From the sequence record NC_073320.1: a stretch of 42,462 nt of DNA; one strand, written 5' to 3'. Made by a program: the position numbers and the translations under genes. Below, piece after piece: positions 12,542-23,740 of the stretch. The first letter of the stretch is position 1. Each line of letters opens with the position of its first letter. This DNA comes from Escherichia phage 26. The notes beneath the pieces are model-generated. The model was not told the DNA's origin. It saw only the letters and a program-made list of their open reading frames with translations, and made no database searches.

Positions 12542-12850
12542 TTGGATAAATTTACTGAAACAGTGACAGGCTGGCTTCTCGCTGCAGCACTCGCTGGAGG
12601 GGTAATCGGACTACAACAACATAAGTACGTTATTTCTGGCCCCATCGACGGCTTCTGCTTTATTGCAACTGGCTTCACTTGCGCCGTATTTGGTGCGCCT
12701 CTTGCCGCTCAATGGTTCGGTATCACGGGCGACCGTGAAATCGCTGGTCTGGGCTTCATCATCGCCATTCTCTGGATGCCTATCTATTCCCGCCTTTCCG
12801 GTATCGTAGCCGGAGAATACATCGCACGTCGAGGAGGCCCAGATGAATGA
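12542..12850 (+). CDS. holin (three predicted TM segments)
   Basis: 102-aa membrane protein, TTG start after GGAGGA, directly upstream of endolysin. Confidence 0.55.
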   Translation: MDKFTETVTGWLLAAALAGGVIGLQQHKYVISGPIDGFCFIATGFTCAVFGAPLAAQWFGITGDREIAGLGFIIAILWMPIYSRLSGIVAGEYIARRGGPDE

Positions 12851-13115
12851 GTTATTCTGGTTCGGCGGTATGCTGGCAATAGGCGGCACATCGCTGTTTA
12901 ACGTGTATCACCCCAGCGTGGACGACGGGATATTTGGCCGGGTGCTCTATATCCTGACCACTATTGTCTGCGCCGCCGGATGTATCCACCTGTTACAGGG
13001 CAGCATGTCACCTACGTTGCCTGAGACGTTAATCACATTAGTTGCGCTGCGCCAGATTCGCCAGGCGTGGCTGTCATACGGAGGGTATAAGCGTGTCTCG
13101 AAATATTTCAGATAA
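12843..13115 (+). CDS. small membrane protein (second holin/antiholin-like)
   Basis: 90 aa, two hydrophobic segments; overlaps holin end and endolysin start. Confidence 0.45.
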   Translation: MNELFWFGGMLAIGGTSLFNVYHPSVDDGIFGRVLYILTTIVCAAGCIHLLQGSMSPTLPETLITLVALRQIRQAWLSYGGYKRVSKYFR

Positions 13116-13599
13116 TGGCTTGCAGTTCAAGAAAGCGTGGGAAAAATTTCGCGGAACTGCTTACAAAGCAACAAAGAACGAAAAATACTGGACCATCGGC
13201 TGGGGCCATACCGGGCCGGATGTGTATGAAGGGCAGAAGATTACCGAGGGCCAGGGGTTACTGTTGCTGAACCGCGATATGCAGTGGGCGGTGAAAGCAG
13301 TCGATGAAGTCGCGCACCCATCGCTGACACAGGCACAGTTTGATGCCGTTGTTGACCTGGTGTTTAACGCGGGGACTGGGGTTATCTCGGCGACTACCGG
13401 AACCGGTAAGGCGCTGCGTAGCGGAGACATCCACACCTTACGGCATAAGTTGAGTCAGTTCATCAACCAACGCAACCCGAAAACAGGTAAACTCGAGCCT
13501 GTGCTTGGCCTACGTCGCCGTACTGCGGGACGACTGGCGCTGTTCGACGGTAAACCGTGGCAAGAGGCTGAGGCTATCGGGAGAGCGGTGAAAGGTTGA
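13093..13599 (+). CDS. endolysin, lysozyme (glycoside hydrolase family 24-like)
   Basis: GLQFKKAWEKFRGTAYKATKNEKYWTIGWGHTG signature; GTG start after GGAGGG (track ORF starts upstream at 13042). Confidence 0.85.
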   Translation: MSRNISDNGLQFKKAWEKFRGTAYKATKNEKYWTIGWGHTGPDVYEGQKITEGQGLLLLNRDMQWAVKAVDEVAHPSLTQAQFDAVVDLVFNAGTGVISATTGTGKALRSGDIHTLRHKLSQFINQRNPKTGKLEPVLGLRRRTAGRLALFDGKPWQEAEAIGRAVKG

Positions 13600-18910: not shown

Positions 18911-18940
18911 AAAAAGGCCCCATAGCGGGGCCTTAGTTTT
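18911..18940. terminator. bidirectional terminator AAGGCCCC-ATAGC-GGGGCCTT
   Basis: 8-bp GC stem flanked by A-run upstream and T-run downstream; sits between convergent portal (+) and DnaN-like (-) genes. Confidence 0.6.
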
Positions 18941-19460
18941 ATTTAAATCTTGCGGGCATTAGCACCATATATGCAGTGTTTGAAAATGATATTTTGCATC
19001 CTCTGGTTTGGTCCTGGAAATCGAAACGAGCAATTTCATTTTTGTATGCCTTAGAAATCTTGTGCGCGTCCGCCAAGTAGGGCATGGTGAATCCTATGCT
19101 ATCAACCGCCCCAGGCGTGATGTGCGCCACACGCCGCCAGTCAGGAAATTTTCCGTCTACAACATCCACCGGAAGTGTACATATAAGCGAACGACTATCG
19201 TCATAGAAAGAAACACTGCTGTAGTCGTGGTCTACTTCCGCGTAGTTAAATTTATAAGGCTCTCTCCCTTTGATGTCTATGAGAACCCCATTCTCGACGT
19301 TTGTCTTAACATTGTCGCAGAACAATCTATGGCCGTCCGTAGACACTATCAACCCTTCCGGGTCTATGTAAAAAGCATTCAGATAGTAGCGCACATCATT
19401 TTTAGCTCTGCATATTTTTGCCCCTATATACGCAGGGAAAGTAATTACTGTAGTAATCAT
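18939..19460 (-). CDS. truncated beta sliding clamp (DnaN) homolog, 173 aa
   Basis: motifs DVRYYLN, STDGHRL, VDGKFPDWRRV, IGFTMPYL, AYMVLMPARF match domain II and the C-terminal end of domain III of bacterial DnaN (recalled E. coli DnaN); RBS GAGGAGGAG; opposite strand to flanking late genes. Confidence 0.7.
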   Translation of the reverse strand: MITTVITFPAYIGAKICRAKNDVRYYLNAFYIDPEGLIVSTDGHRLFCDNVKTNVENGVLIDIKGREPYKFNYAEVDHDYSSVSFYDDSRSLICTLPVDVVDGKFPDWRRVAHITPGAVDSIGFTMPYLADAHKISKAYKNEIARFDFQDQTRGCKISFSNTAYMVLMPARFK

Positions 19461-19561: not shown

Positions 19562-20605
19562 ATGAGCTTACTTACATCCCTAATCAGCCACCAGATTTGG
19601 CTGCAACGCACCGCATCCGGTGAAGTGAAAGACCTCGCACCGTTCATTGAGGAAATGCGGGACGAAATCAAACGGCAGGTGCTATTATTCGGCGACGACG
19701 GGCGAAGCACCGCGCGACTGAATAAACTGTTACGCGACCTGGAAGAAGCATTAACCGGGCTTACAGGAGACTGGCAAACAAAGCTGACAGAAGACCTTAA
19801 GGAACTGGCGGCGTATGAGGCAGAGTGGAACGTAAAGACACTGGCCGCCAACGTTAACGCGGAATTTGTTACACCTACCGCCGAACAGGTGTGGGCCGCT
19901 GCCGAGTTTCAGCCCTTATCATTAAGCGACAAGCCTGCCGACTTCACTAAGCTGATGTCGGGTTGGGGTGAAACGGAAGTAGCACGTCTCGTAACAGGCG
20001 TTAAGATGGGCTTTGTTCAGGGCCAAACCACGCGGCATATCGTTAAGAATGTCGTAGGCGCTGGTGGACTGGCTGACATCTCTGAACGCAACGCCGCTAC
20101 GGTAATACGTACTGCGCTGTCCCACGTATCCAACGAAGCCCGTAACGAGACATACCGACAGAACGACGACATCATTGAGAAGTACGAAATCGTCGCCACA
20201 CTCGACAGCCGTACATCAACAATATGCCGTAGCCTGGACGGGCAGGAATACGAAATCGGCAAAGGGCCGAGACCCCCTTTCCACCCTAACTGCAGAACGA
20301 CCACTGCGCCCGTAATCAGTTCAGAGTTCGACTTCCTGGATAAAGGCGCAAAACGAGCAGCTAAAGGTGCGGACGGCGGCACTCAAGTGAGCGCGGATAC
20401 CACATACTACGAGTTCCTGAAACAACAGCCGGCGTGGTTCCAGGACCAGGCGCTCGGCCCTGTTCGCGGTAAGATTTTCCGTAACAGCGGTATATCGCCG
20501 GAAGAGTTTCGCGTAATATCTGTAGATGGTTTCGGGAATCCGCTGACGCTTAAGCAGATGGCGGAACTCGATAAACGTGTTGCTGATTATCTGAAAGAGG
20601 AATAA
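19562..20605 (+). CDS. head morphogenesis / minor head protein (by position)
   Basis: 347 aa after portal; ATG 19562 after RBS AGGAGGG (track ORF starts at upstream TTG 19505). Confidence 0.5.
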   Translation: MSLLTSLISHQIWLQRTASGEVKDLAPFIEEMRDEIKRQVLLFGDDGRSTARLNKLLRDLEEALTGLTGDWQTKLTEDLKELAAYEAEWNVKTLAANVNAEFVTPTAEQVWAAAEFQPLSLSDKPADFTKLMSGWGETEVARLVTGVKMGFVQGQTTRHIVKNVVGAGGLADISERNAATVIRTALSHVSNEARNETYRQNDDIIEKYEIVATLDSRTSTICRSLDGQEYEIGKGPRPPFHPNCRTTTAPVISSEFDFLDKGAKRAAKGADGGTQVSADTTYYEFLKQQPAWFQDQALGPVRGKIFRNSGISPEEFRVISVDGFGNPLTLKQMAELDKRVADYLKEE

Positions 20606-21066
20606 TGATGGGCTTTTTCAAAGTAACTGATGCGCCGTCGCGTCGCGTAGTCCAGTACGCCCGCGTGGCTGGCTCTGGTGAGAACGTGGTGTTTATTGAA
20701 GATGAAAGTGTACTTGGTACACCAGTAGACGATATGCCGTTTGCAGATAAAACCGGCATCGCACTACCAGCGGCTGGGATGCTTTACGAGATTCCGTATC
20801 TGGCTGACGCTGGCGATGTGTATTTCTCAGTGCAACCGAAAGACACTGAACTGGTGGACGGAAGCGCAACTATCACTGTCGAAGTTAAGGCGGGCAAAGC
20901 ACCATACGCTCTGACCTGGTACAAAGACGGAAAAGAAGTGGTAAACGCCCCGGAAGAGGCTTTGTCCCTGACGGTTAACGCGGCCGGAGAATACTTCGTT
21001 AAAGTTACTGACGCCGATGGTGTAGAGGCGGTAAGCAAGGCGGCGAAGGTTACTAAGCCCGAATAA
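20605..21066 (+). CDS. Ig-like domain protein (possible decoration protein)
   Basis: LTWYKDGKEV motif shared with the 24065 ORF (QWYKDNNAI). Confidence 0.45.
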   Translation: MMGFFKVTDAPSRRVVQYARVAGSGENVVFIEDESVLGTPVDDMPFADKTGIALPAAGMLYEIPYLADAGDVYFSVQPKDTELVDGSATITVEVKAGKAPYALTWYKDGKEVVNAPEEALSLTVNAAGEYFVKVTDADGVEAVSKAAKVTKPE

Positions 21067-21141
21067 ACTGAAGCCCAGAAAGGGGCTTTTTAGTGTCTGT
21101 GATTATTCCAGTTATTCCACTCAATTGTAAATGTCGGAATA

Positions 21142-21157
21142 AACTATTCGAATAGTT
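21142..21157. repeat. perfect 16-bp palindrome AACTATTCGAATAGTT (everted copy of the dyad half-sites)
   Basis: self-complementary; overlaps a TTGACT -35-like hexamer. Confidence 0.6.
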
Positions 21158-21268
21158 GACTTTTCACTGAAAATGTGCTAAGCTCCACCTGAGCTTGTGA
21201 AGTATGAACAAGCGACCGCGGCGCGGGCAGGTAACGGAGCGGGACGTAAGTCCTGAGTGTAGTTACGC

Positions 21269-21297
21269 TGACGCGTTCGGAAGGGCCATACTATATT
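21269..21297 (+). promoter_or_regulatory. promoter-like element (TGACGC-17-TATATT) upstream of spanin genes
   Basis: -35/-10-like hexamers with 17-bp spacing. Confidence 0.35.
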
Positions 21298-21364
21298 GCT
21301 TGTATAAAAAGTAACTGGTTTACTGAGATTACGCCGTTTCTATGTTTAAATGATAAGCACTAGC

Positions 21365-21391
21365 GCCCCGCTTTAAGGCGGGGCTTTACTT
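21365..21391 (+). terminator. rho-independent terminator/attenuator
   Basis: GCCCCGC-TTTAAG-GCGGGGC then TTTACTT. Confidence 0.5.
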
Positions 21392-21408
21392 ATCGAGAAA
21401 GGGGAAAC

Positions 21409-21795
21409 ATGAATCTTAAAGCAACTGTCGTAGCGGGAGCATGTTTCATAGTCCTGGCTTACGCGCACGGCATCTACCAATACCGCGGCGGCTGGAACGA
21501 AGGCCGGGCGAATCTCGTTTCGCAGCAACAGCAGAAAGCACAGGCTGAGTTAGCGAAGAAAACACAACGGCAGCAGCAGGATGAATCGAAGGCCGCAGCC
21601 GCCGACAACGAAGGCAAGACGAAATCAGAGGTGATTACCCGTGAAGTCGTTAAGTACATTAAAACGCCTGGTCGCAGCGTGTGCACTTTCGACGATACTC
21701 GCGTCCTGCTCAAGTCCCGCGCCGTCGCAAACGCCAATTCCATCCCCGGATACGACAATGATGCAGCCGCCGTGCAAGCTGGCACCCCCAAGTAG
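21409..21795 (+). CDS. i-spanin (Rz-like)
   Basis: N-terminal TM LKATVVAGACFIVLAYAHGIY, Gln/Lys-rich coiled-coil, periplasmic C-terminus; contains embedded lipoprotein gene. Confidence 0.6.
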   Translation: MNLKATVVAGACFIVLAYAHGIYQYRGGWNEGRANLVSQQQQKAQAELAKKTQRQQQDESKAAAADNEGKTKSEVITREVVKYIKTPGRSVCTFDDTRVLLKSRAVANANSIPGYDNDAAAVQAGTPK

Positions 21796-21904
21796 CGACG
21801 CTGACGAGGATTTAGCTATCGACGCCCAGAACGCCGAATGTGTACGGCAACTGAGGCTGAAAGTGTTCATGTTGCAGGATTACGTGAGGAATATTCTGGA
21901 ATAG
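21641..21904 (+). CDS. o-spanin (Rz1-like lipoprotein), out of frame within and extending past the i-spanin gene
   Basis: signal peptide with lipobox ILASC, Pro-rich mature region, GTG start after GAGGTG. Confidence 0.55.
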   Translation: MKSLSTLKRLVAACALSTILASCSSPAPSQTPIPSPDTTMMQPPCKLAPPSSDADEDLAIDAQNAECVRQLRLKVFMLQDYVRNILE

Positions 21905-21986
21905 TTGCCTTGCATGTTGGAATAATTTATTCTTGACATGTAAATCCGGGTGGCCCGGGTTCCAACGTCCAGGGGACATACTGACT

Positions 21987-22688
21987 ATGAATCGTTTTTT
22001 ACGTTATCCGTTCCAGGAAGAAGCTGGGGCAGAAGATAAAGCTGGCGGCGGTGACGCGCCGAAAATGTTCACTGTTGAAGAAGTTCAGGCGCTGATTGAG
22101 AAAGAAGTTGCCGGGCTTAAGGCCAATCAGGAAGCGTTGCTGGCGGAGAAGAAAGAAGCCGCACGTAAAGCAAAAGAGGCTGAAGAAGAACGGCAGCGCG
22201 CACACCAGGAGGCGTTAAAAGCCGCTGGTAAGATGGATGAGTTCGAAAAGACGATTCGTAGCCAGTATGACCCGGTGTTAGCCGAGAAAGATGGGCGCAT
22301 CTCCAAAATGGCGGAGCGCATCCTCGGCAGCGAACGTAAAGCGGTGTTAGGCTCTTTCGCGGGTGACTTTATTACCCCGGAAGCAGTAGACATTCTTGCA
22401 CCGTTCGTTAAGACTGAGTTCGAAGGCGATGATGTGGTTACTAAGTTTGTCGGCGCAGATGGCAACGTAATCACGACTGACCCGGAACAGTTCCGCAAAT
22501 ACCTGCGCGAACACAAAGCGTTTTCGCATTTGATTAAAGCAAATGCAGCTTCCGGCGGCGGGGCTTCCGGTAGCAAAGGCGGCGGGGCCGCACCAGCGTT
22601 TAAAGACATGAGTGAAGCGGAGCGTTTAGCTCTGTATAAATCGAACCCTGCCGAATTTGAACGGCAACTTAAAGCCCTGAGGAAATAA
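21987..22688 (+). CDS. scaffolding protein (by position and composition)
   Basis: 233 aa, Ala/Glu/Lys-rich helical, directly upstream of major capsid gene. Confidence 0.55.
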   Translation: MNRFLRYPFQEEAGAEDKAGGGDAPKMFTVEEVQALIEKEVAGLKANQEALLAEKKEAARKAKEAEEERQRAHQEALKAAGKMDEFEKTIRSQYDPVLAEKDGRISKMAERILGSERKAVLGSFAGDFITPEAVDILAPFVKTEFEGDDVVTKFVGADGNVITTDPEQFRKYLREHKAFSHLIKANAASGGGASGSKGGGAAPAFKDMSEAERLALYKSNPAEFERQLKALRK

Positions 22689-22690
22689 TA

Positions 22691-23740
22691 ATGGCAATTA
22701 CCACTATCGGCGATATCGTAACTGGCAACATCCCGGTCCTGGCGTCTTATATGACTGAGGACCCGGTAGAAAAAACCGCGTTCTTCCAGTCTGGTATTCT
22801 GACCCCGACCCCATACGCTGCCGAGATTGCCCGCGGCCCGTCCAACATCGCTAATATTCCGTTCTGGAAAGCGATTGATACCTCTATCGAGCCGAACTAC
22901 TCGAACGACGTATACCATGACATCGCAACCCCGCGTAACGTGCAGACCGGTGAGATGATGGCGCGCGTTGCATACCTGAACGAAGGTTTTGGCCAGGCCG
23001 ACCTGACTGTCGAACTGACCAGCCAGAACCCGCTGCAATCCGTAGCGTCCCGTCTGGATAACTTCTGGCAGCGTCAGGCGCAACGCCGTCTTATTGCTAC
23101 CGCACTCGGTCTGTACAACGACAACGTAGCCGCTACTGATGCTTACCACGAGCAGAACGACATGGTTATCGACGTGTCCGCTACTCTGGGTTTCGACGCA
23201 GGCGCGTTCATCGACGCTACCCAGACTATGGGTGATGCACTGATTGGCAACGGTGGTGAAGTGCTGGGCGCTATCGCGATGCATAGCTTCGTTTATGCGC
23301 AGGCCCGTAAGCAGCAGCTTATTGACTTCATCAAAGACGCTGACAACGACACCCTGTTCGCCACCTACCAGGGCTACCGCGTGGTTGTTGACGACAGCAT
23401 GACCGTAGTAGGTAGTGGCGGCAGCCGTAAGTTCATCTCCATCATCTTCGGCAACGGCGCTATCGGTTACGGCGAAGGTTCTCCGTCCAACCCGCTGGAG
23501 TACGAGCGCGAAGCGTCCCGCGGCAACGGCGGTGGCGTAGAAACCCTGTGGACCCGTAAGACCTGGTTGCTGCACCCGCTGGGCTACAGCTTCACCAGCG
23601 CAGTAATCACCGGCAACGGCACCGAGACCGTCGCACGTTCTGCTTCCTGGCAGGACCTGGCGAACGCTTCCAACTGGAACCGTGTTGTCGAACGTAAGCA
23701 CGTACCGATCGCCTTCCTGGTAACTGGTGTAGGGGCTTAA
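22691..23740 (+). CDS. major capsid protein
   Basis: 349 aa after scaffold gene, followed by a terminator. Confidence 0.7.
   Translation: MAITTIGDIVTGNIPVLASYMTEDPVEKTAFFQSGILTPTPYAAEIARGPSNIANIPFWKAIDTSIEPNYSNDVYHDIATPRNVQTGEMMARVAYLNEGFGQADLTVELTSQNPLQSVASRLDNFWQRQAQRRLIATALGLYNDNVAATDAYHEQNDMVIDVSATLGFDAGAFIDATQTMGDALIGNGGEVLGAIAMHSFVYAQARKQQLIDFIKDADNDTLFATYQGYRVVVDDSMTVVGSGGSRKFISIIFGNGAIGYGEGSPSNPLEYEREASRGNGGGVETLWTRKTWLLHPLGYSFTSAVITGNGTETVARSASWQDLANASNWNRVVERKHVPIAFLVTGVGA

What the first reader, a model, noticed from the sequence alone, without database searches (positions are those of the whole stretch)
21409..21904. Spanin pair lies about 8 kb away from holin/endolysin, inside the head module
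Holin, a second small membrane protein and the lysozyme are at 12542-13599. The Rz-like i-spanin with an embedded, out-of-frame Rz1-like lipoprotein (lipobox ILASC, GTG start) is at 21409-21904, between the Ig-like gene and the scaffold gene, with its own promoter-like element and attenuator upstream. A split lysis module implies separate transcriptional timing for spanins.
Basis: partly seen in the sequence, partly recalled or inferred. Interest (0 to 1): 0.4.

Follow-up and report, generated by a model that had tools for sequence, protein, structure and literature searches.

The report
Known spanin pair with structured leader
The two overlapping genes are the already catalogued outer-membrane-disrupting "spanin" pair of K1G/Jersey-like phages, sitting where they sit in hundreds of sequenced relatives, so the finding is ordinary; the one unreported thing nearby is a conserved folded RNA leader just upstream.

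Summary
The window is a near-complete Kagunavirus (Guernseyvirinae) genome, about 94% identical to K1G, K1ind1 and Sciku.

- **i-spanin:** 21409-21795 encodes a 128-aa protein with an N-terminal membrane helix.
- **o-spanin:** 21641-21904 (GTG start, +1 frame) encodes an 87-aa lipoprotein with lipobox LASC, Cys23 and Ser at +2.
- **Correction:** the pair is overlapped (155 nt shared, 109 nt beyond the Rz stop), not embedded.
- **Lysis cassette:** holin, holin and endolysin at 12542-13599 are confirmed, 7.8 kb upstream.

This pair, its 155-nt overlap and its conserved Cys45/Cys67 are described for the "Jersey" spanin family (Kongari 2018). GenBank records annotate it. A genome announcement states that it is separate from the holin and endolysin. 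Every relative I examined keeps the same position. The spanin finding is therefore already known. The inference of separate transcriptional timing is untested and not required, since T4 lysis genes are also unlinked.

One thing appears new. The 340-nt "intergenic" stretch upstream holds a strictly conserved extended -10 promoter, a roughly 100-nt RNA domain supported by covariation, and a hairpin before the spanin ribosome-binding site. It has no Rfam match. It is unannotated, or covered by ORFs that are not conserved.

The parts
21409..21795 (+). i-spanin (Rz-like) gene: 128 aa, N-terminal TMD, one conserved periplasmic Cys (C92)
   Evidence: ORF. phrog_2536 'Rz-like spanin' at 9e-55. Hydropathy. 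AF2 single-sequence model has a helix at residues 3-63 with pLDDT 72-84. 89.8-95.3% aa identity to the listed Kagunavirus-type hits and 61-76% to Salmonella Jersey-like phages.
21641..21904 (+). o-spanin (Rz1-like) gene: 87 aa, GTG start, +1 frame, lipobox LASC with Cys23, periplasmic Cys45 and Cys67. It overlaps Rz by 155 nt and extends 109 nt beyond it.
   Evidence: phrog_5672 at 1e-28 and phrog_1267 at 3e-17. Codon-position entropy shows selection in this frame. A lipobox and both Cys are kept in all relatives. It is the only credible lipoprotein ORF in the window.
21628..21635 (+). Shine-Dalgarno GAGGTGAT for the o-spanin GTG, lying inside the Rz reading frame
   Evidence: Read from the sequence. 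Annotated as an RBS in Sciku.
21156..21184 (+). sigma-70-type extended -10 promoter candidate: -35 TTGACT (21156-21161), 17-nt spacer ending in TGc, -10 TAAGCT (21179-21184). Predicted start near 21191.
   Evidence: Read from the sequence. The geometry is identical in all 36 distinct homologous elements of three clades, while the spacer sequence varies. It is below the threshold of the generic scan.
21103..21149 (.). Operator-like repeats: TTATTCC-AG-TTATTCC (21103-21118) and the palindrome GGAATAAACTATTC (21136-21149), which ends 6 nt before the -35
   Evidence: Invariant across clades. The 6-nt distance to the -35 is fixed in 36 of 36 elements.
21188..21289 (+). Structured RNA domain of the leader: hairpin H1 (21193-21198 with 21208-21213), a long irregular hairpin P1-P2-P3 capped by GUAA (P3 at 21240-21255), and the invariant CGGAAGG (21278-21284)
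   Evidence: Covariance model R1 scores 131 bits here and finds the Jersey clade at E 1e-4 to 1e-5, with one copy per genome. 95.6% of cells pair against 28-39% in slid controls, and 14 pairs show double-sided changes. No Rfam family matches.
21365..21392 (+). GC-rich hairpin GCCCCGC-UUUAAG-GCGGGGC followed by UUUACUUA: a terminator-like attenuator 17 nt before the spanin SD
   Evidence: dG -17.2. One stem pair shows four pair types: CG, GC, UA, AU. The U-tract is weaker in the Jersey clade and absent in the phiEap-2 clade.
21919..21937 (+). Second copy of the palindrome (GGAATAATTTATTC) followed directly by TTGAC, between the o-spanin stop and the scaffold gene
   Evidence: Conserved as far as phiEap-2. 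No usable -10 was found, so promoter status is open.
12542..13599 (+). Separate lysis cassette: holin (12542-12850), second holin/antiholin-like protein (12843-13115) and soluble lysozyme-type endolysin (probable start GTG 13093, ending 13599)
   Evidence: phrog_2359, phrog_2508 and PF00959. TM segments, and the absence of an N-terminal hydrophobic segment in the endolysin.

Best explanation
Positions 21409-21904 encode the two-component spanin of a Kagunavirus. This is the 'Jersey' family with overlapped gene architecture.

**Shown here.**
- One gene gives a small protein with an N-terminal membrane anchor.
- The other gene, read in the +1 frame from an internal GTG with its own strong ribosome-binding site, gives a lipoprotein precursor whose mature form is short, proline-rich and has no Asp at +2.
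- Both frames are under purifying selection.
- The periplasmic cysteines (one in the i-spanin, two in the o-spanin) are conserved.
- The pair sits at the same place, between the Hoc-like/head-morphogenesis genes and the scaffold gene, in every relative examined. The holin-holin-endolysin cassette lies elsewhere on the same strand.

**Inferred from the lambda Rz/Rz1 paradigm, not tested for this family.** The i-spanin in the inner membrane and the lipid-anchored o-spanin in the outer membrane bind through their C-termini and form disulfide-linked complexes that span the periplasm. The peptidoglycan mesh keeps them inactive. Once the holin releases the endolysin and the wall is degraded, they fuse the two membranes, which is the last step of lysis. 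Because control is post-translational, the genes need not be linked to, or co-timed with, the holin and endolysin.

**Expression (inferred).** The pair appears to be a small transcription unit of its own: a conserved extended -10 promoter at 21156-21184, a roughly 215-nt leader containing a covariation-supported RNA domain, and a GC-rich hairpin just before the Rz ribosome-binding site. I read this as a leaky terminator or attenuator that keeps spanin dosage low compared with the flanking head genes.
For: **Identity**
- PHROG spanin families match at 9e-55, 1e-28 and 3e-17.
- 89.8-95.3% aa identity to the listed Kagunavirus-type genes, several annotated 'spanin', 'putative spanin' or 'o-spanin'; K1ind1, K1G and Sciku annotate the pair as spanins or i-spanin/o-spanin.
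- Kongari 2018 lists K1G, K1ind1-3 and Jersey in one overlapped family with a 155-bp overlap and constant Cys45/Cys67. Both are exactly as found here.

**Features**
- TMD, lipobox and Pro content.
- A long N-terminal helix.
- Selection in both frames.
- Conserved lipobox and Cys in all clades.
- The only lipoprotein candidate in the window.

**Synteny**
- 47 IMG/VR loci, plus K1G, Jersey, phiEap-2, St162 and SO-1.

**Published separation**
- Schulenberg announcement.
- SeF1 gene numbers, with the same PHROGs.

**Regulatory unit**
-.
Against: No member of the Jersey spanin family has, to my knowledge, been tested by complementation or knockout, so function rests on features and homology-by-annotation. 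There is no match to the lambda Rz (PF03245) or Rz1 (PF06085) Pfam models or to any NCBIfam model. The C-terminal half of the i-spanin is not confidently modelled. Many Jersey-clade o-spanins have Asn at lipobox position -2 (LLNGC), which is atypical. For the regulatory part, no transcript data exist, the -10 hexamer is weak (TAAGCT), and the hairpin has a good U-tract only in the Kagunavirus clade.
Confidence: 0.9

Rival explanations
1. The pair is not a spanin but another envelope-directed pair. One example would be a superinfection-exclusion or receptor-blocking lipoprotein (of the T5 Llp or Cor type) with a membrane partner. Another would be a membrane-associated head-assembly factor, given its place in the head module.
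For: It lies between head genes and is unlinked to the holin and endolysin. There is no experimental test for this family and no Pfam or NCBIfam spanin model hit.
Against: It has the full spanin feature set: a type-II membrane protein plus an overlapping +1 lipoprotein with Pro-rich mature part, and conserved periplasmic Cys in both. It is the only spanin candidate in an otherwise complete lysis system for a Gram-negative host. Specialists curated it as a spanin family.
Confidence: 0.05
2. The +1 ORF (21641-21904) is a chance open frame in a GC-rich gene and is not expressed. Only the 128-aa protein would be real.
For: Other long spurious ORFs overlap the same stretch on the minus strand (21474-21791 and 21625-21870). 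The start codon is GTG.
Against: Codon-position periodicity in the +1 frame beyond the Rz stop. A strong SD at the right spacing. The frame, the lipobox and two Cys are kept in clades with 36-75% i-spanin identity, including genomes where the two genes barely overlap.
Confidence: 0.02
3. Regulatory rival A. The promoter, structured RNA and hairpin unit is the control point of the whole downstream late operon (spanins, scaffold, capsid, tail). It would work by processive antitermination. One model is lambda pR'-6S RNA-tR' with Q. Another is a cis-acting RNA such as HK022 put that makes RNA polymerase terminator-resistant.
For: A promoter is followed about 200 nt later by a terminator-like hairpin, and lysis genes come first downstream, as in lambda. 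No convincing sigma-70 promoter lies between the hairpin and the highly expressed scaffold and capsid genes. The RNA has two adjacent stem-loops directly after the start site, supported by covariation. Short pR'-terminated transcripts are known by-products in Stx phages (PMC7547250, abstract listed).
Against: No Q-like gene or qut-like site was identified. No similarity to any Rfam family. The hairpin lacks a U-tract in the Jersey and phiEap-2 clades, so there may be little termination to overcome. The second palindrome plus TTGAC before the scaffold gene could mark a separate activator-dependent promoter.
Confidence: 0.2
4. Regulatory rival B. The region encodes a free-standing small RNA of about 200 nt, with its own promoter and terminator, that acts in trans. 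It would have nothing specific to do with the spanins.
For: In this window a promoter, a structured domain, an AU-rich stretch and a terminator with UUUACUU resemble an sRNA gene. Conservation is in places higher than that of the neighbouring CDS.
Against: The terminator tail degenerates in the Jersey clade (3 U in 8) and in the phiEap-2 clade (0-2 U in 8), while the hairpin and its position 15-25 nt before the spanin RBS are kept. No other promoter exists for the spanin genes between the hairpin and the ATG. The element is always directly upstream of the spanins in all three clades.
Confidence: 0.15
5. Regulatory rival C. The 36-aa ORF (21204-21314), annotated as a hypothetical protein in Sciku, is a real small protein, and this explains the conservation.
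For: It is annotated in MK931439 with an RBS and is intact in most Kagunavirus-clade copies.
Against: It is truncated to 9-17 aa or frameshifted in K1ind1, L007, L009, L011 and L020. The ATG is lost in L026, L027 and the whole Jersey and phiEap-2 clades, although the nucleotide element is kept. Jersey annotates a different, non-homologous ORF (gp08) over the same region. The substitutions are compensatory in RNA helices.
Confidence: 0.03

Closest known systems
'Jersey' i-spanin/o-spanin family (Kongari et al. 2018, BMC Bioinformatics 19:326; members include Jersey, SETP3, K1G, K1H, K1ind1-3, HK578 and SO-1)
   Same: Same family by sequence (PHROG 2536/5672; 89.8-95.3% aa to the Kagunavirus-type hits, and about 93-94% nt to K1G/K1ind1). 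Same overlapped architecture with a 155-nt overlap. Same conserved o-spanin Cys45 and Cys67. Same genome position.
   Different: Nothing material. About 5-10% amino-acid divergence from named isolates.
Lambda Rz/Rz1, the prototype two-component spanin
   Same: A type-II inner-membrane protein plus an outer-membrane lipoprotein encoded in the +1 frame of the same DNA. Periplasmic cysteines are present. The presumed membrane-fusion mechanism is gated by peptidoglycan.
   Different: No detectable sequence similarity (no PF03245 or PF06085 hit). Rz1 is fully embedded in lambda but overlapped here. In lambda the genes are the last genes of the S-R-Rz lysis cassette, whereas here they lie 7.8 kb away in the head module.
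T4 PseT.3/PseT.2 spanins
   Same: [quoted passage not shown] This shows that unlinked lysis genes work (Kongari 2018, Fig. 8 legend).
   Different: T4 has the separated architecture and a different sequence family. In T4 all the lysis genes are scattered, whereas here holin and endolysin remain a cassette.
Lambda/Stx-phage pR'-short transcript-tR' unit (6S RNA, StxS) and HK022 put RNA
   Same: A constitutive-looking promoter, a short structured transcript and a terminator-like hairpin lie directly upstream of lysis and late genes.
   Different: No Q-like antiterminator or qut site was identified. There is no sequence or Rfam similarity. The terminator is weak or absent in sister clades. The function is untested.
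Morons (promoter-gene-terminator units inserted in late operons of lambdoid phages)
   Same: A self-contained unit with its own promoter sits between two head genes, in an interval that is a hot spot for extra genes in relatives.
   Different: The cargo is an essential lysis function, and its position is fixed across two phage groups rather than sporadic.

Membership tests
Two-component spanin (functional class; criteria of Summer 2007 and Kongari 2018) | i-spanin: small protein with a single N-terminal TMD and a mostly helical periplasmic domain | tested here: met
   Hydrophobic segment at residues 1-19. AF2 helix at residues 3-63 with pLDDT 72-84; the C-terminal half is low confidence.
Two-component spanin (functional class; criteria of Summer 2007 and Kongari 2018) | o-spanin: signal peptidase II signal with a lipobox Cys, no inner-membrane retention residue (Asp) at +2, and a short proline-rich mature protein | tested here: met
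   Positively charged n-region (K2, K8, R9). The PS51257-type pattern ACALSTILASC matches, with Cys23 followed by Ser-Ser. The mature protein is 65 aa with 9 Pro.
Two-component spanin (functional class; criteria of Summer 2007 and Kongari 2018) | The o-spanin gene is embedded in, overlapping with or immediately following the i-spanin gene | tested here: met
   +1 frame, 155-nt overlap, 109 nt beyond the Rz stop: the overlapped class.
Two-component spanin (functional class; criteria of Summer 2007 and Kongari 2018) | Periplasmic cysteines available for intermolecular disulfides | tested here: met
   i-spanin C92; o-spanin C45 and C67. All are conserved in relatives and noted by Kongari 2018.
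Two-component spanin (functional class; criteria of Summer 2007 and Kongari 2018) | Required for outer-membrane disruption, or complements a lambda Rz/Rz1 defect | not testable with these tools
   I found no experimental report for this family in the literature searches.
Jersey spanin family (sequence family) | Significant sequence similarity to the Jersey/K1G i- and o-spanins over the periplasmic domains | tested here: met
   phrog_2536 at 9e-55 and phrog_5672 at 1e-28. tblastn gives 89.8-95.3% to the listed Kagunavirus-type hits and 61-76% to Salmonella Jersey-like phages. About 93-94% nt to K1G and K1ind1.
Lambda Rz (Pfam PF03245) and Rz1 (PF06085) sequence families | Match to the Pfam model above its gathering score | tested here: not met
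   No hit even at E <= 0.1. Only sub-threshold DUF2514 and DUF4148 hits appear.
   The o-spanin stop at 21904 is 109 nt beyond the i-spanin stop at 21795.
Canonical contiguous lysis cassette (holin-endolysin-spanin) | Spanin genes adjacent to the holin and endolysin | tested here: not met
   A 7,810-nt gap holds the terminase, portal, head-morphogenesis and Hoc-like genes. The layout is the same in K1G and Jersey.
Any described RNA family (Rfam 15), for the upstream leader | Covariance-model match | tested here: not met
   No match at E <= 1 over 1.2 kb. Only noise (at most 14 bits) at E <= 10 over 231 nt.
Intrinsic (Rho-independent) terminator, for the hairpin at 21365-21392 | A GC-rich stem-loop immediately followed by a U-tract | tested here: inconclusive
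   The stem has dG -17.2. The tail UUUACUUA has 5 U in 8 but only 3 consecutive. Tails are poorer in the Jersey clade (3 of 8) and the phiEap-2 clade (0-2 of 8).
Sigma-70 extended -10 promoter, for 21156-21184 | A -35-like hexamer, a 17-nt spacer, TG at -15/-14, and a -10 with T1, A2 and T6 | tested here: met
   TTGACT-17-TGc-TAAGCT. All four features are kept in 36 of 36 distinct elements of three clades. Activity was not tested.

The most novel reading that the evidence does not exclude
The roughly 215-nt stretch between the conserved promoter (21156-21184) and the spanin start codon would be a previously undescribed cis-regulatory RNA of Guernseyvirinae. It consists of a two-hairpin domain (21188-21289) plus a hairpin next to the ribosome-binding site. 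It would control how much transcription enters the spanin genes and possibly the scaffold and capsid genes behind them. The mechanism could be a protein- or polymerase-binding attenuator or antiterminator. A palindromic operator (GGAATAA-N-TTATTCC), shared with the scaffold upstream region, would tie it to a phage regulator.
Probability: 0.45. Interest if true: 0.5.

Novelty: already known. Interest (0 to 1): 0.15.

Why it matters
The spanin pair itself adds nothing new. It confirms that a tool-free reader can recognise an overlapped Rz/Rz1 pair, and it documents that unlinked spanins are the rule in K1G/Jersey-like and Dhillonvirus phages, many of which are used in therapy and biocontrol work.

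The practical points are about annotation. The o-spanin is still missing or called 'hypothetical' in many deposited genomes. The upstream 'intergenic' region is repeatedly given spurious, mutually non-homologous ORFs.

If the conserved leader RNA proves to be regulatory, it would give a compact, host-polymerase-driven control element for late and lysis gene dosage. It would also offer a handle for studying how these phages time late expression, for which the literature searches here found nothing.

Tried and rejected
- **Pfam and NCBIfam scans of both proteins:** no spanin model hit. This was uninformative rather than contradictory, because spanin families are many and poorly covered.
- **Rfam at gathering-like and at permissive thresholds:** nothing.
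- **Generic promoter scan:** it missed the conserved promoter because the -10 has only 3 of 6 matches. I relied on comparative conservation instead.
- **A second promoter before the scaffold gene (TTGACA at 21933):** rejected as unproven. No -10 lies at a usable distance in any clade, and the spacer would contain a conserved GC hairpin.
- **MAFFT plus RNAalifold on all clades:** this gave a partly spurious long-range helix and misregistered the Jersey and phiEap-2 helices. I replaced it with a covariance model built on the Kagunavirus clade and CM-guided realignment.
- **Model R2 on the phiEap-2 clade:** it reached only 16.8 bits, E 0.14. Homology there rests on synteny and inspection by eye.
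- **Viral-contig scan with the operator motif:** mostly chance hits in AT-rich contigs, plus T1-like phages that carry the motif without the RNA.
- **Alternative terminator/antiterminator pairing between the P3 5' arm and the hairpin 5' arm:** a good match in the Jersey clade (7 bp) and the Kagunavirus clade (6 bp), but none in the phiEap-2 clade, so I dropped it as unsupported.
- **AF2 without an alignment:** it gave confident structure only for residues 1-63 of the i-spanin.
- **Literature searches for transcript data on these phages:** no transcriptome or promoter-mapping paper for them turned up. The three other CPT genome announcements checked (Sciku, Shashou, Shemara) do not mention lysis genes.
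Full report
**What the window is.** A megablast of 20600-22700 finds 482 phage records. The best are Kagunavirus genomes (K1G, K1ind1/2, ST20, Sciku, JSSK01) at 93-95% identity over the full query. Under the match they annotate 'Hoc-like head decoration / Rz-like spanin (x2) / head scaffolding protein'. The 42.5-kb window is therefore an almost complete Guernseyvirinae siphophage genome.

**Check of the observation.**
- ORF 21409-21795 (ATG, 128 aa) and ORF 21641-21904 (GTG, 87 aa, +1 frame) are both present.
- The first protein begins with a hydrophobic segment, MNLKATVVAGACFIVLAYA. AF2 without an alignment models residues 3-63 as one long helix with pLDDT 72-84; the rest is low confidence.
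- The second protein has a charged n-region and the string ACALSTILASC, which matches a PROSITE PS51257-type lipobox pattern. Cys is at position 23, followed by Ser-Ser. The mature part is 65 residues with 14% proline and two further cysteines, C45 and C67.
- Its GTG is preceded by GAGGTGAT with a 5-nt spacing.
- It is the only credible lipoprotein ORF in the window.
- The two genes share 155 nt, and the second runs 109 nt past the stop of the first. The architecture is therefore 'overlapped', not 'embedded'.

**Is the overlap more than chance?** In 42 distinct gapless homologues (pairwise identity down to 68%), per-site entropy in the Rz-only part peaks at Rz codon position 3 (0.59 against 0.27 and 0.21). 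In the 109 nt after the Rz stop it peaks at the third position of the +1 frame (0.58 against 0.19 and 0.09). Every relative inspected keeps an open +1 frame with a lipobox (LASC, LSGC, LNGC, ITGC, CSC or SAC) and the motif PPCK...DEDL...AEC..LRL. This includes phiEap-2, St162, Kp4885-1 and Sodalis phage SO-1, with i-spanin identity down to 36%.

**Surroundings.**
- Hoc-like Ig-domain protein, 20605-21066: phrog_3945 at 4e-85.
- Scaffold, 21933/21987-22688: phrog_206 at 1e-55.
- Major head protein, 22691-23740.
- Head-morphogenesis protein, portal and terminase lie upstream.
- Positions 12542-13599 encode two holin-family membrane proteins (phrog_2359, phrog_2508) and a lysozyme (PF00959 at 1.8e-24).
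- The endolysin probably starts at GTG 13093, behind GGAGG, and has no hydrophobic N-terminus.
- The gap from the endolysin stop to the Rz start is 7,810 nt, all on the + strand. Terminator-like hairpins lie in between, at 18914-18934 and 21071-21088.

**Identity.**
- The i-spanin matches phrog_2536 'Rz-like spanin' (9e-55). The o-spanin matches phrog_5672 (1e-28) and phrog_1267 (3e-17).
- There is no hit to the lambda Rz or Rz1 Pfam families or to any NCBIfam model. The pair is a spanin by class and by the Jersey sequence family, not a lambda Rz homologue detectable by sequence.
- Sciku's record calls the two genes i-spanin and o-spanin 'similar to phage K1g overlapping inner/outer membrane spanin'. 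K1ind1, K1G and Jersey records call them 'Rz-like spanin'.

**What is published.**
- Kongari et al. 2018 (PMC6139136) list Jersey, SETP3, K1G, K1H, K1ind1-3, HK578 and SO-1 as one 'Jersey' family in the overlapped class.
- They state that the Jersey spanins overlap by 155 bp and that o-spanin Cys45 and Cys67 are constant.
- They describe relatives (FSL_SP-031) with only 8 bp of overlap. I see the same variant in St162 and L039.
- For Jerseyvirus SeF1, the spanins are Gp_009/010 and the holins and endolysin are Gp_063-065, with the same PHROGs as here (PMC9409062).
- Kongari's Fig. 8 legend notes that the T4 spanin genes are likewise not near t and e.

**Synteny.** All 47 IMG/VR loci retrieved with the i-spanin keep the pair. 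In K1G, Jersey, phiEap-2, St162 and SO-1 the pair lies between the head-morphogenesis/Hoc-like genes and the scaffold gene. In K1G and Jersey, where I read the whole genome annotation, the holin-holin-endolysin cassette lies upstream of the terminase genes. The interval between Hoc-like and scaffold is a hot spot for extra genes: two reverse-strand genes in St162, three small genes in phiEap-2, and a clamp-like 'moron' in SO-1. The spanins stay put throughout.

**Mechanism.** The lambda paradigm, taken from general knowledge and Kongari 2018, gives the following picture. The i-spanin anchors in the inner membrane. The o-spanin is lipid-anchored in the outer membrane. Their C-termini bind, disulfide-linked complexes span the periplasm, and they are held inactive by the peptidoglycan mesh. 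After holin triggering and wall degradation they fuse the two membranes. None of this has been tested for the Jersey family, so it is inference from class features. Because control is post-translational, a split from the holin and endolysin does not by itself imply separate timing.

**The upstream 'promoter and attenuator'.** The 340 nt between the Hoc-like stop and the Rz ATG are highly conserved. In L036, L037, L039 and L050 they are 91-94% identical to the window, although the i-spanin is only 66-73% identical.

The anatomy is as follows.
- TTATTCC-AG-TTATTCC at 21103-21118.
- The palindrome GGAATAAACTATTC at 21136-21149.
- A promoter: -35 TTGACT, a 17-nt spacer ending in TGc, and -10 TAAGCT, at 21156-21184.
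- A structured domain at 21188-21289.
- An AU-rich stretch.
- The hairpin GCCCCGC-UUUAAG-GCGGGGC plus UUUACUUA at 21365-21392.
- The spanin SD.

Evidence for the promoter: all 36 distinct elements from the Kagunavirus, Jersey and phiEap-2 clades keep TnGAyT, exactly 17 nt, TG, TAnnCT, and a 6-nt gap from the palindrome.

Evidence for the RNA domain:
- A covariance model built from 14 Kagunavirus-clade sequences, using a hand-derived structure, finds the Jersey-clade elements at E of about 1e-4 to 1e-5. There is one copy per genome.
- On the CM alignment, 95.6% of cells pair against 28-39% when partners are slid. Fourteen of 27 pairs show changes on both sides. The covariation score is 0.386 against 0.134 in shuffles (0 of 500).
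- Two caveats apply. The alignment is fitted to the model, and much of the signal is between two clades. However, L007, L027, L002, L044 and L046 add compensatory changes within clades.
- G-U pairs fit the + strand.
- phiEap-2 matches only weakly (16.8 bits) but shows the same helices. Its relatives L073 and L074 replace P2/P3 with different, still complementary sequences.
- Rfam has no match.

Evidence against a coding explanation: the 36-aa ORF annotated here in Sciku is truncated, frameshifted or missing in many copies. Jersey annotates a different ORF over the same region.

The hairpin before the RBS is kept in all clades (dG -14 to -18). One of its pairs shows four pair types. Its U-tract weakens from 5 of 8 in the Kagunavirus clade to 3 of 8 in the Jersey clade and 0-2 of 8 in the phiEap-2 clade. 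It is therefore at best a leaky terminator.

My preferred reading is a dedicated spanin transcription unit with a structured 5' leader that limits dosage. The rivals are a lambda pR'/tR'-like or put-like antitermination hub for the late operon, a free sRNA, and a small protein. All are unresolved without transcript data.

A second copy of the palindrome plus TTGAC lies between the o-spanin stop and the scaffold gene (21919-21937) and is conserved as far as phiEap-2. No usable -10 follows it.

**Verdict.** The identification is correct. The arrangement is the standard, annotated and published layout of this phage group, so the finding is already known and of low interest. The conserved leader RNA and its operator-like repeats are the only apparently unreported features, and they deserve a transcript-mapping experiment.

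Noticed in passing
window 21188-21289 (with promoter 21156-21184 and hairpin 21365-21392): A conserved structured RNA domain, supported by covariation, lies in the 5' leader of the spanin genes. It has no Rfam match and one copy per genome. It is present in the Kagunavirus and Jersey clades and, weakly, in the phiEap-2 clade.
   Followed up: yes
window 21103-21149 and 21919-21932; also L081, L099, L125, L131: TTATTCC/GGAATAA repeats form an operator-like palindrome (GGAATAA-N-TTATTCC) a fixed 6 nt upstream of the -35, and again before the scaffold gene. A similar cluster (TTATTCC-N2-TTATTCC-N8-GGAATA-N3-GGAATAA) occurs upstream of small unknown genes on contigs matching the roughly 50-kb coliphages and salmophages PGN590, herni and slyngel, which I take to be T1-like. 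No RNA element accompanies it there. The binding protein is unknown.
   Followed up: partly
window 21204-21314: The 36-aa ORF annotated as a hypothetical protein in Sciku (CPT_Sciku_007) is not conserved. It is truncated, frameshifted or lacks its ATG in many relatives. Jersey annotates a different ORF (gp08) over the same region. Both are probably spurious calls on an RNA element.
   Followed up: yes
window 18939-19460 (minus strand), with the bidirectional hairpin 18914-18934: A reverse-strand 173-aa gene sits between the portal and head-morphogenesis genes. It matches phrog_3007, labelled 'RusA-like', and Sciku annotates it as DNA polymerase III sliding clamp-like. It is absent at this position in K1G. 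In SO-1 the similarly annotated gene sits immediately after the spanins and is noted as a 'possible moron'.
   Followed up: no
window 13042-13599: The mechanical ORF starts at TTG 13042, overlapping the second holin gene. The endolysin more likely starts at GTG 13093, behind GGAGG. The protein has no N-terminal hydrophobic (SAR) segment, so it is a canonical soluble endolysin that needs a large-hole holin.
   Followed up: partly
window 21067-21408 versus L051, L053, L054 and two-piece hits: The interval between the Hoc-like and scaffold genes is an insertion hot spot in relatives. St162 has two reverse-strand genes there, phiEap-2 has three small genes, SO-1 has a clamp-like gene, and NRG857CP3, phiWAO78-1 and SZH-1 carry inserts of about 0.3-0.6 kb. 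The spanin pair is always retained.
   Followed up: partly
L036, L037, L039, L050 (IMG/VR Salmonella-phage-like contigs): The leader is 91-94% identical to the window, while the adjacent i-spanin is only 66-73% identical, and in L036, L037 and L050 the scaffold upstream region is of the Jersey type. This points to a recombination boundary at the spanin start, or unusually strong constraint on the leader.
   Followed up: no
window 21946-21958 and 21968-21978: The scaffold 5' region has a conserved hairpin CCGGG-NGG-CCCGG whose first loop base is free to vary (T, A, C or G in relatives). A small hairpin GTCC-AGG-GGAC overlaps the scaffold Shine-Dalgarno. This may be translational or stability control of the scaffold and capsid mRNA.
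   Followed up: no
L054 (St162), L039: In these relatives the spanin genes overlap by only 8-14 nt (St162 by its annotated ATG start), and the o-spanin has a different signal peptide (…ITGC). This is the 'separated' variant of the same family that Kongari 2018 described for FSL_SP-031.
   Followed up: partly
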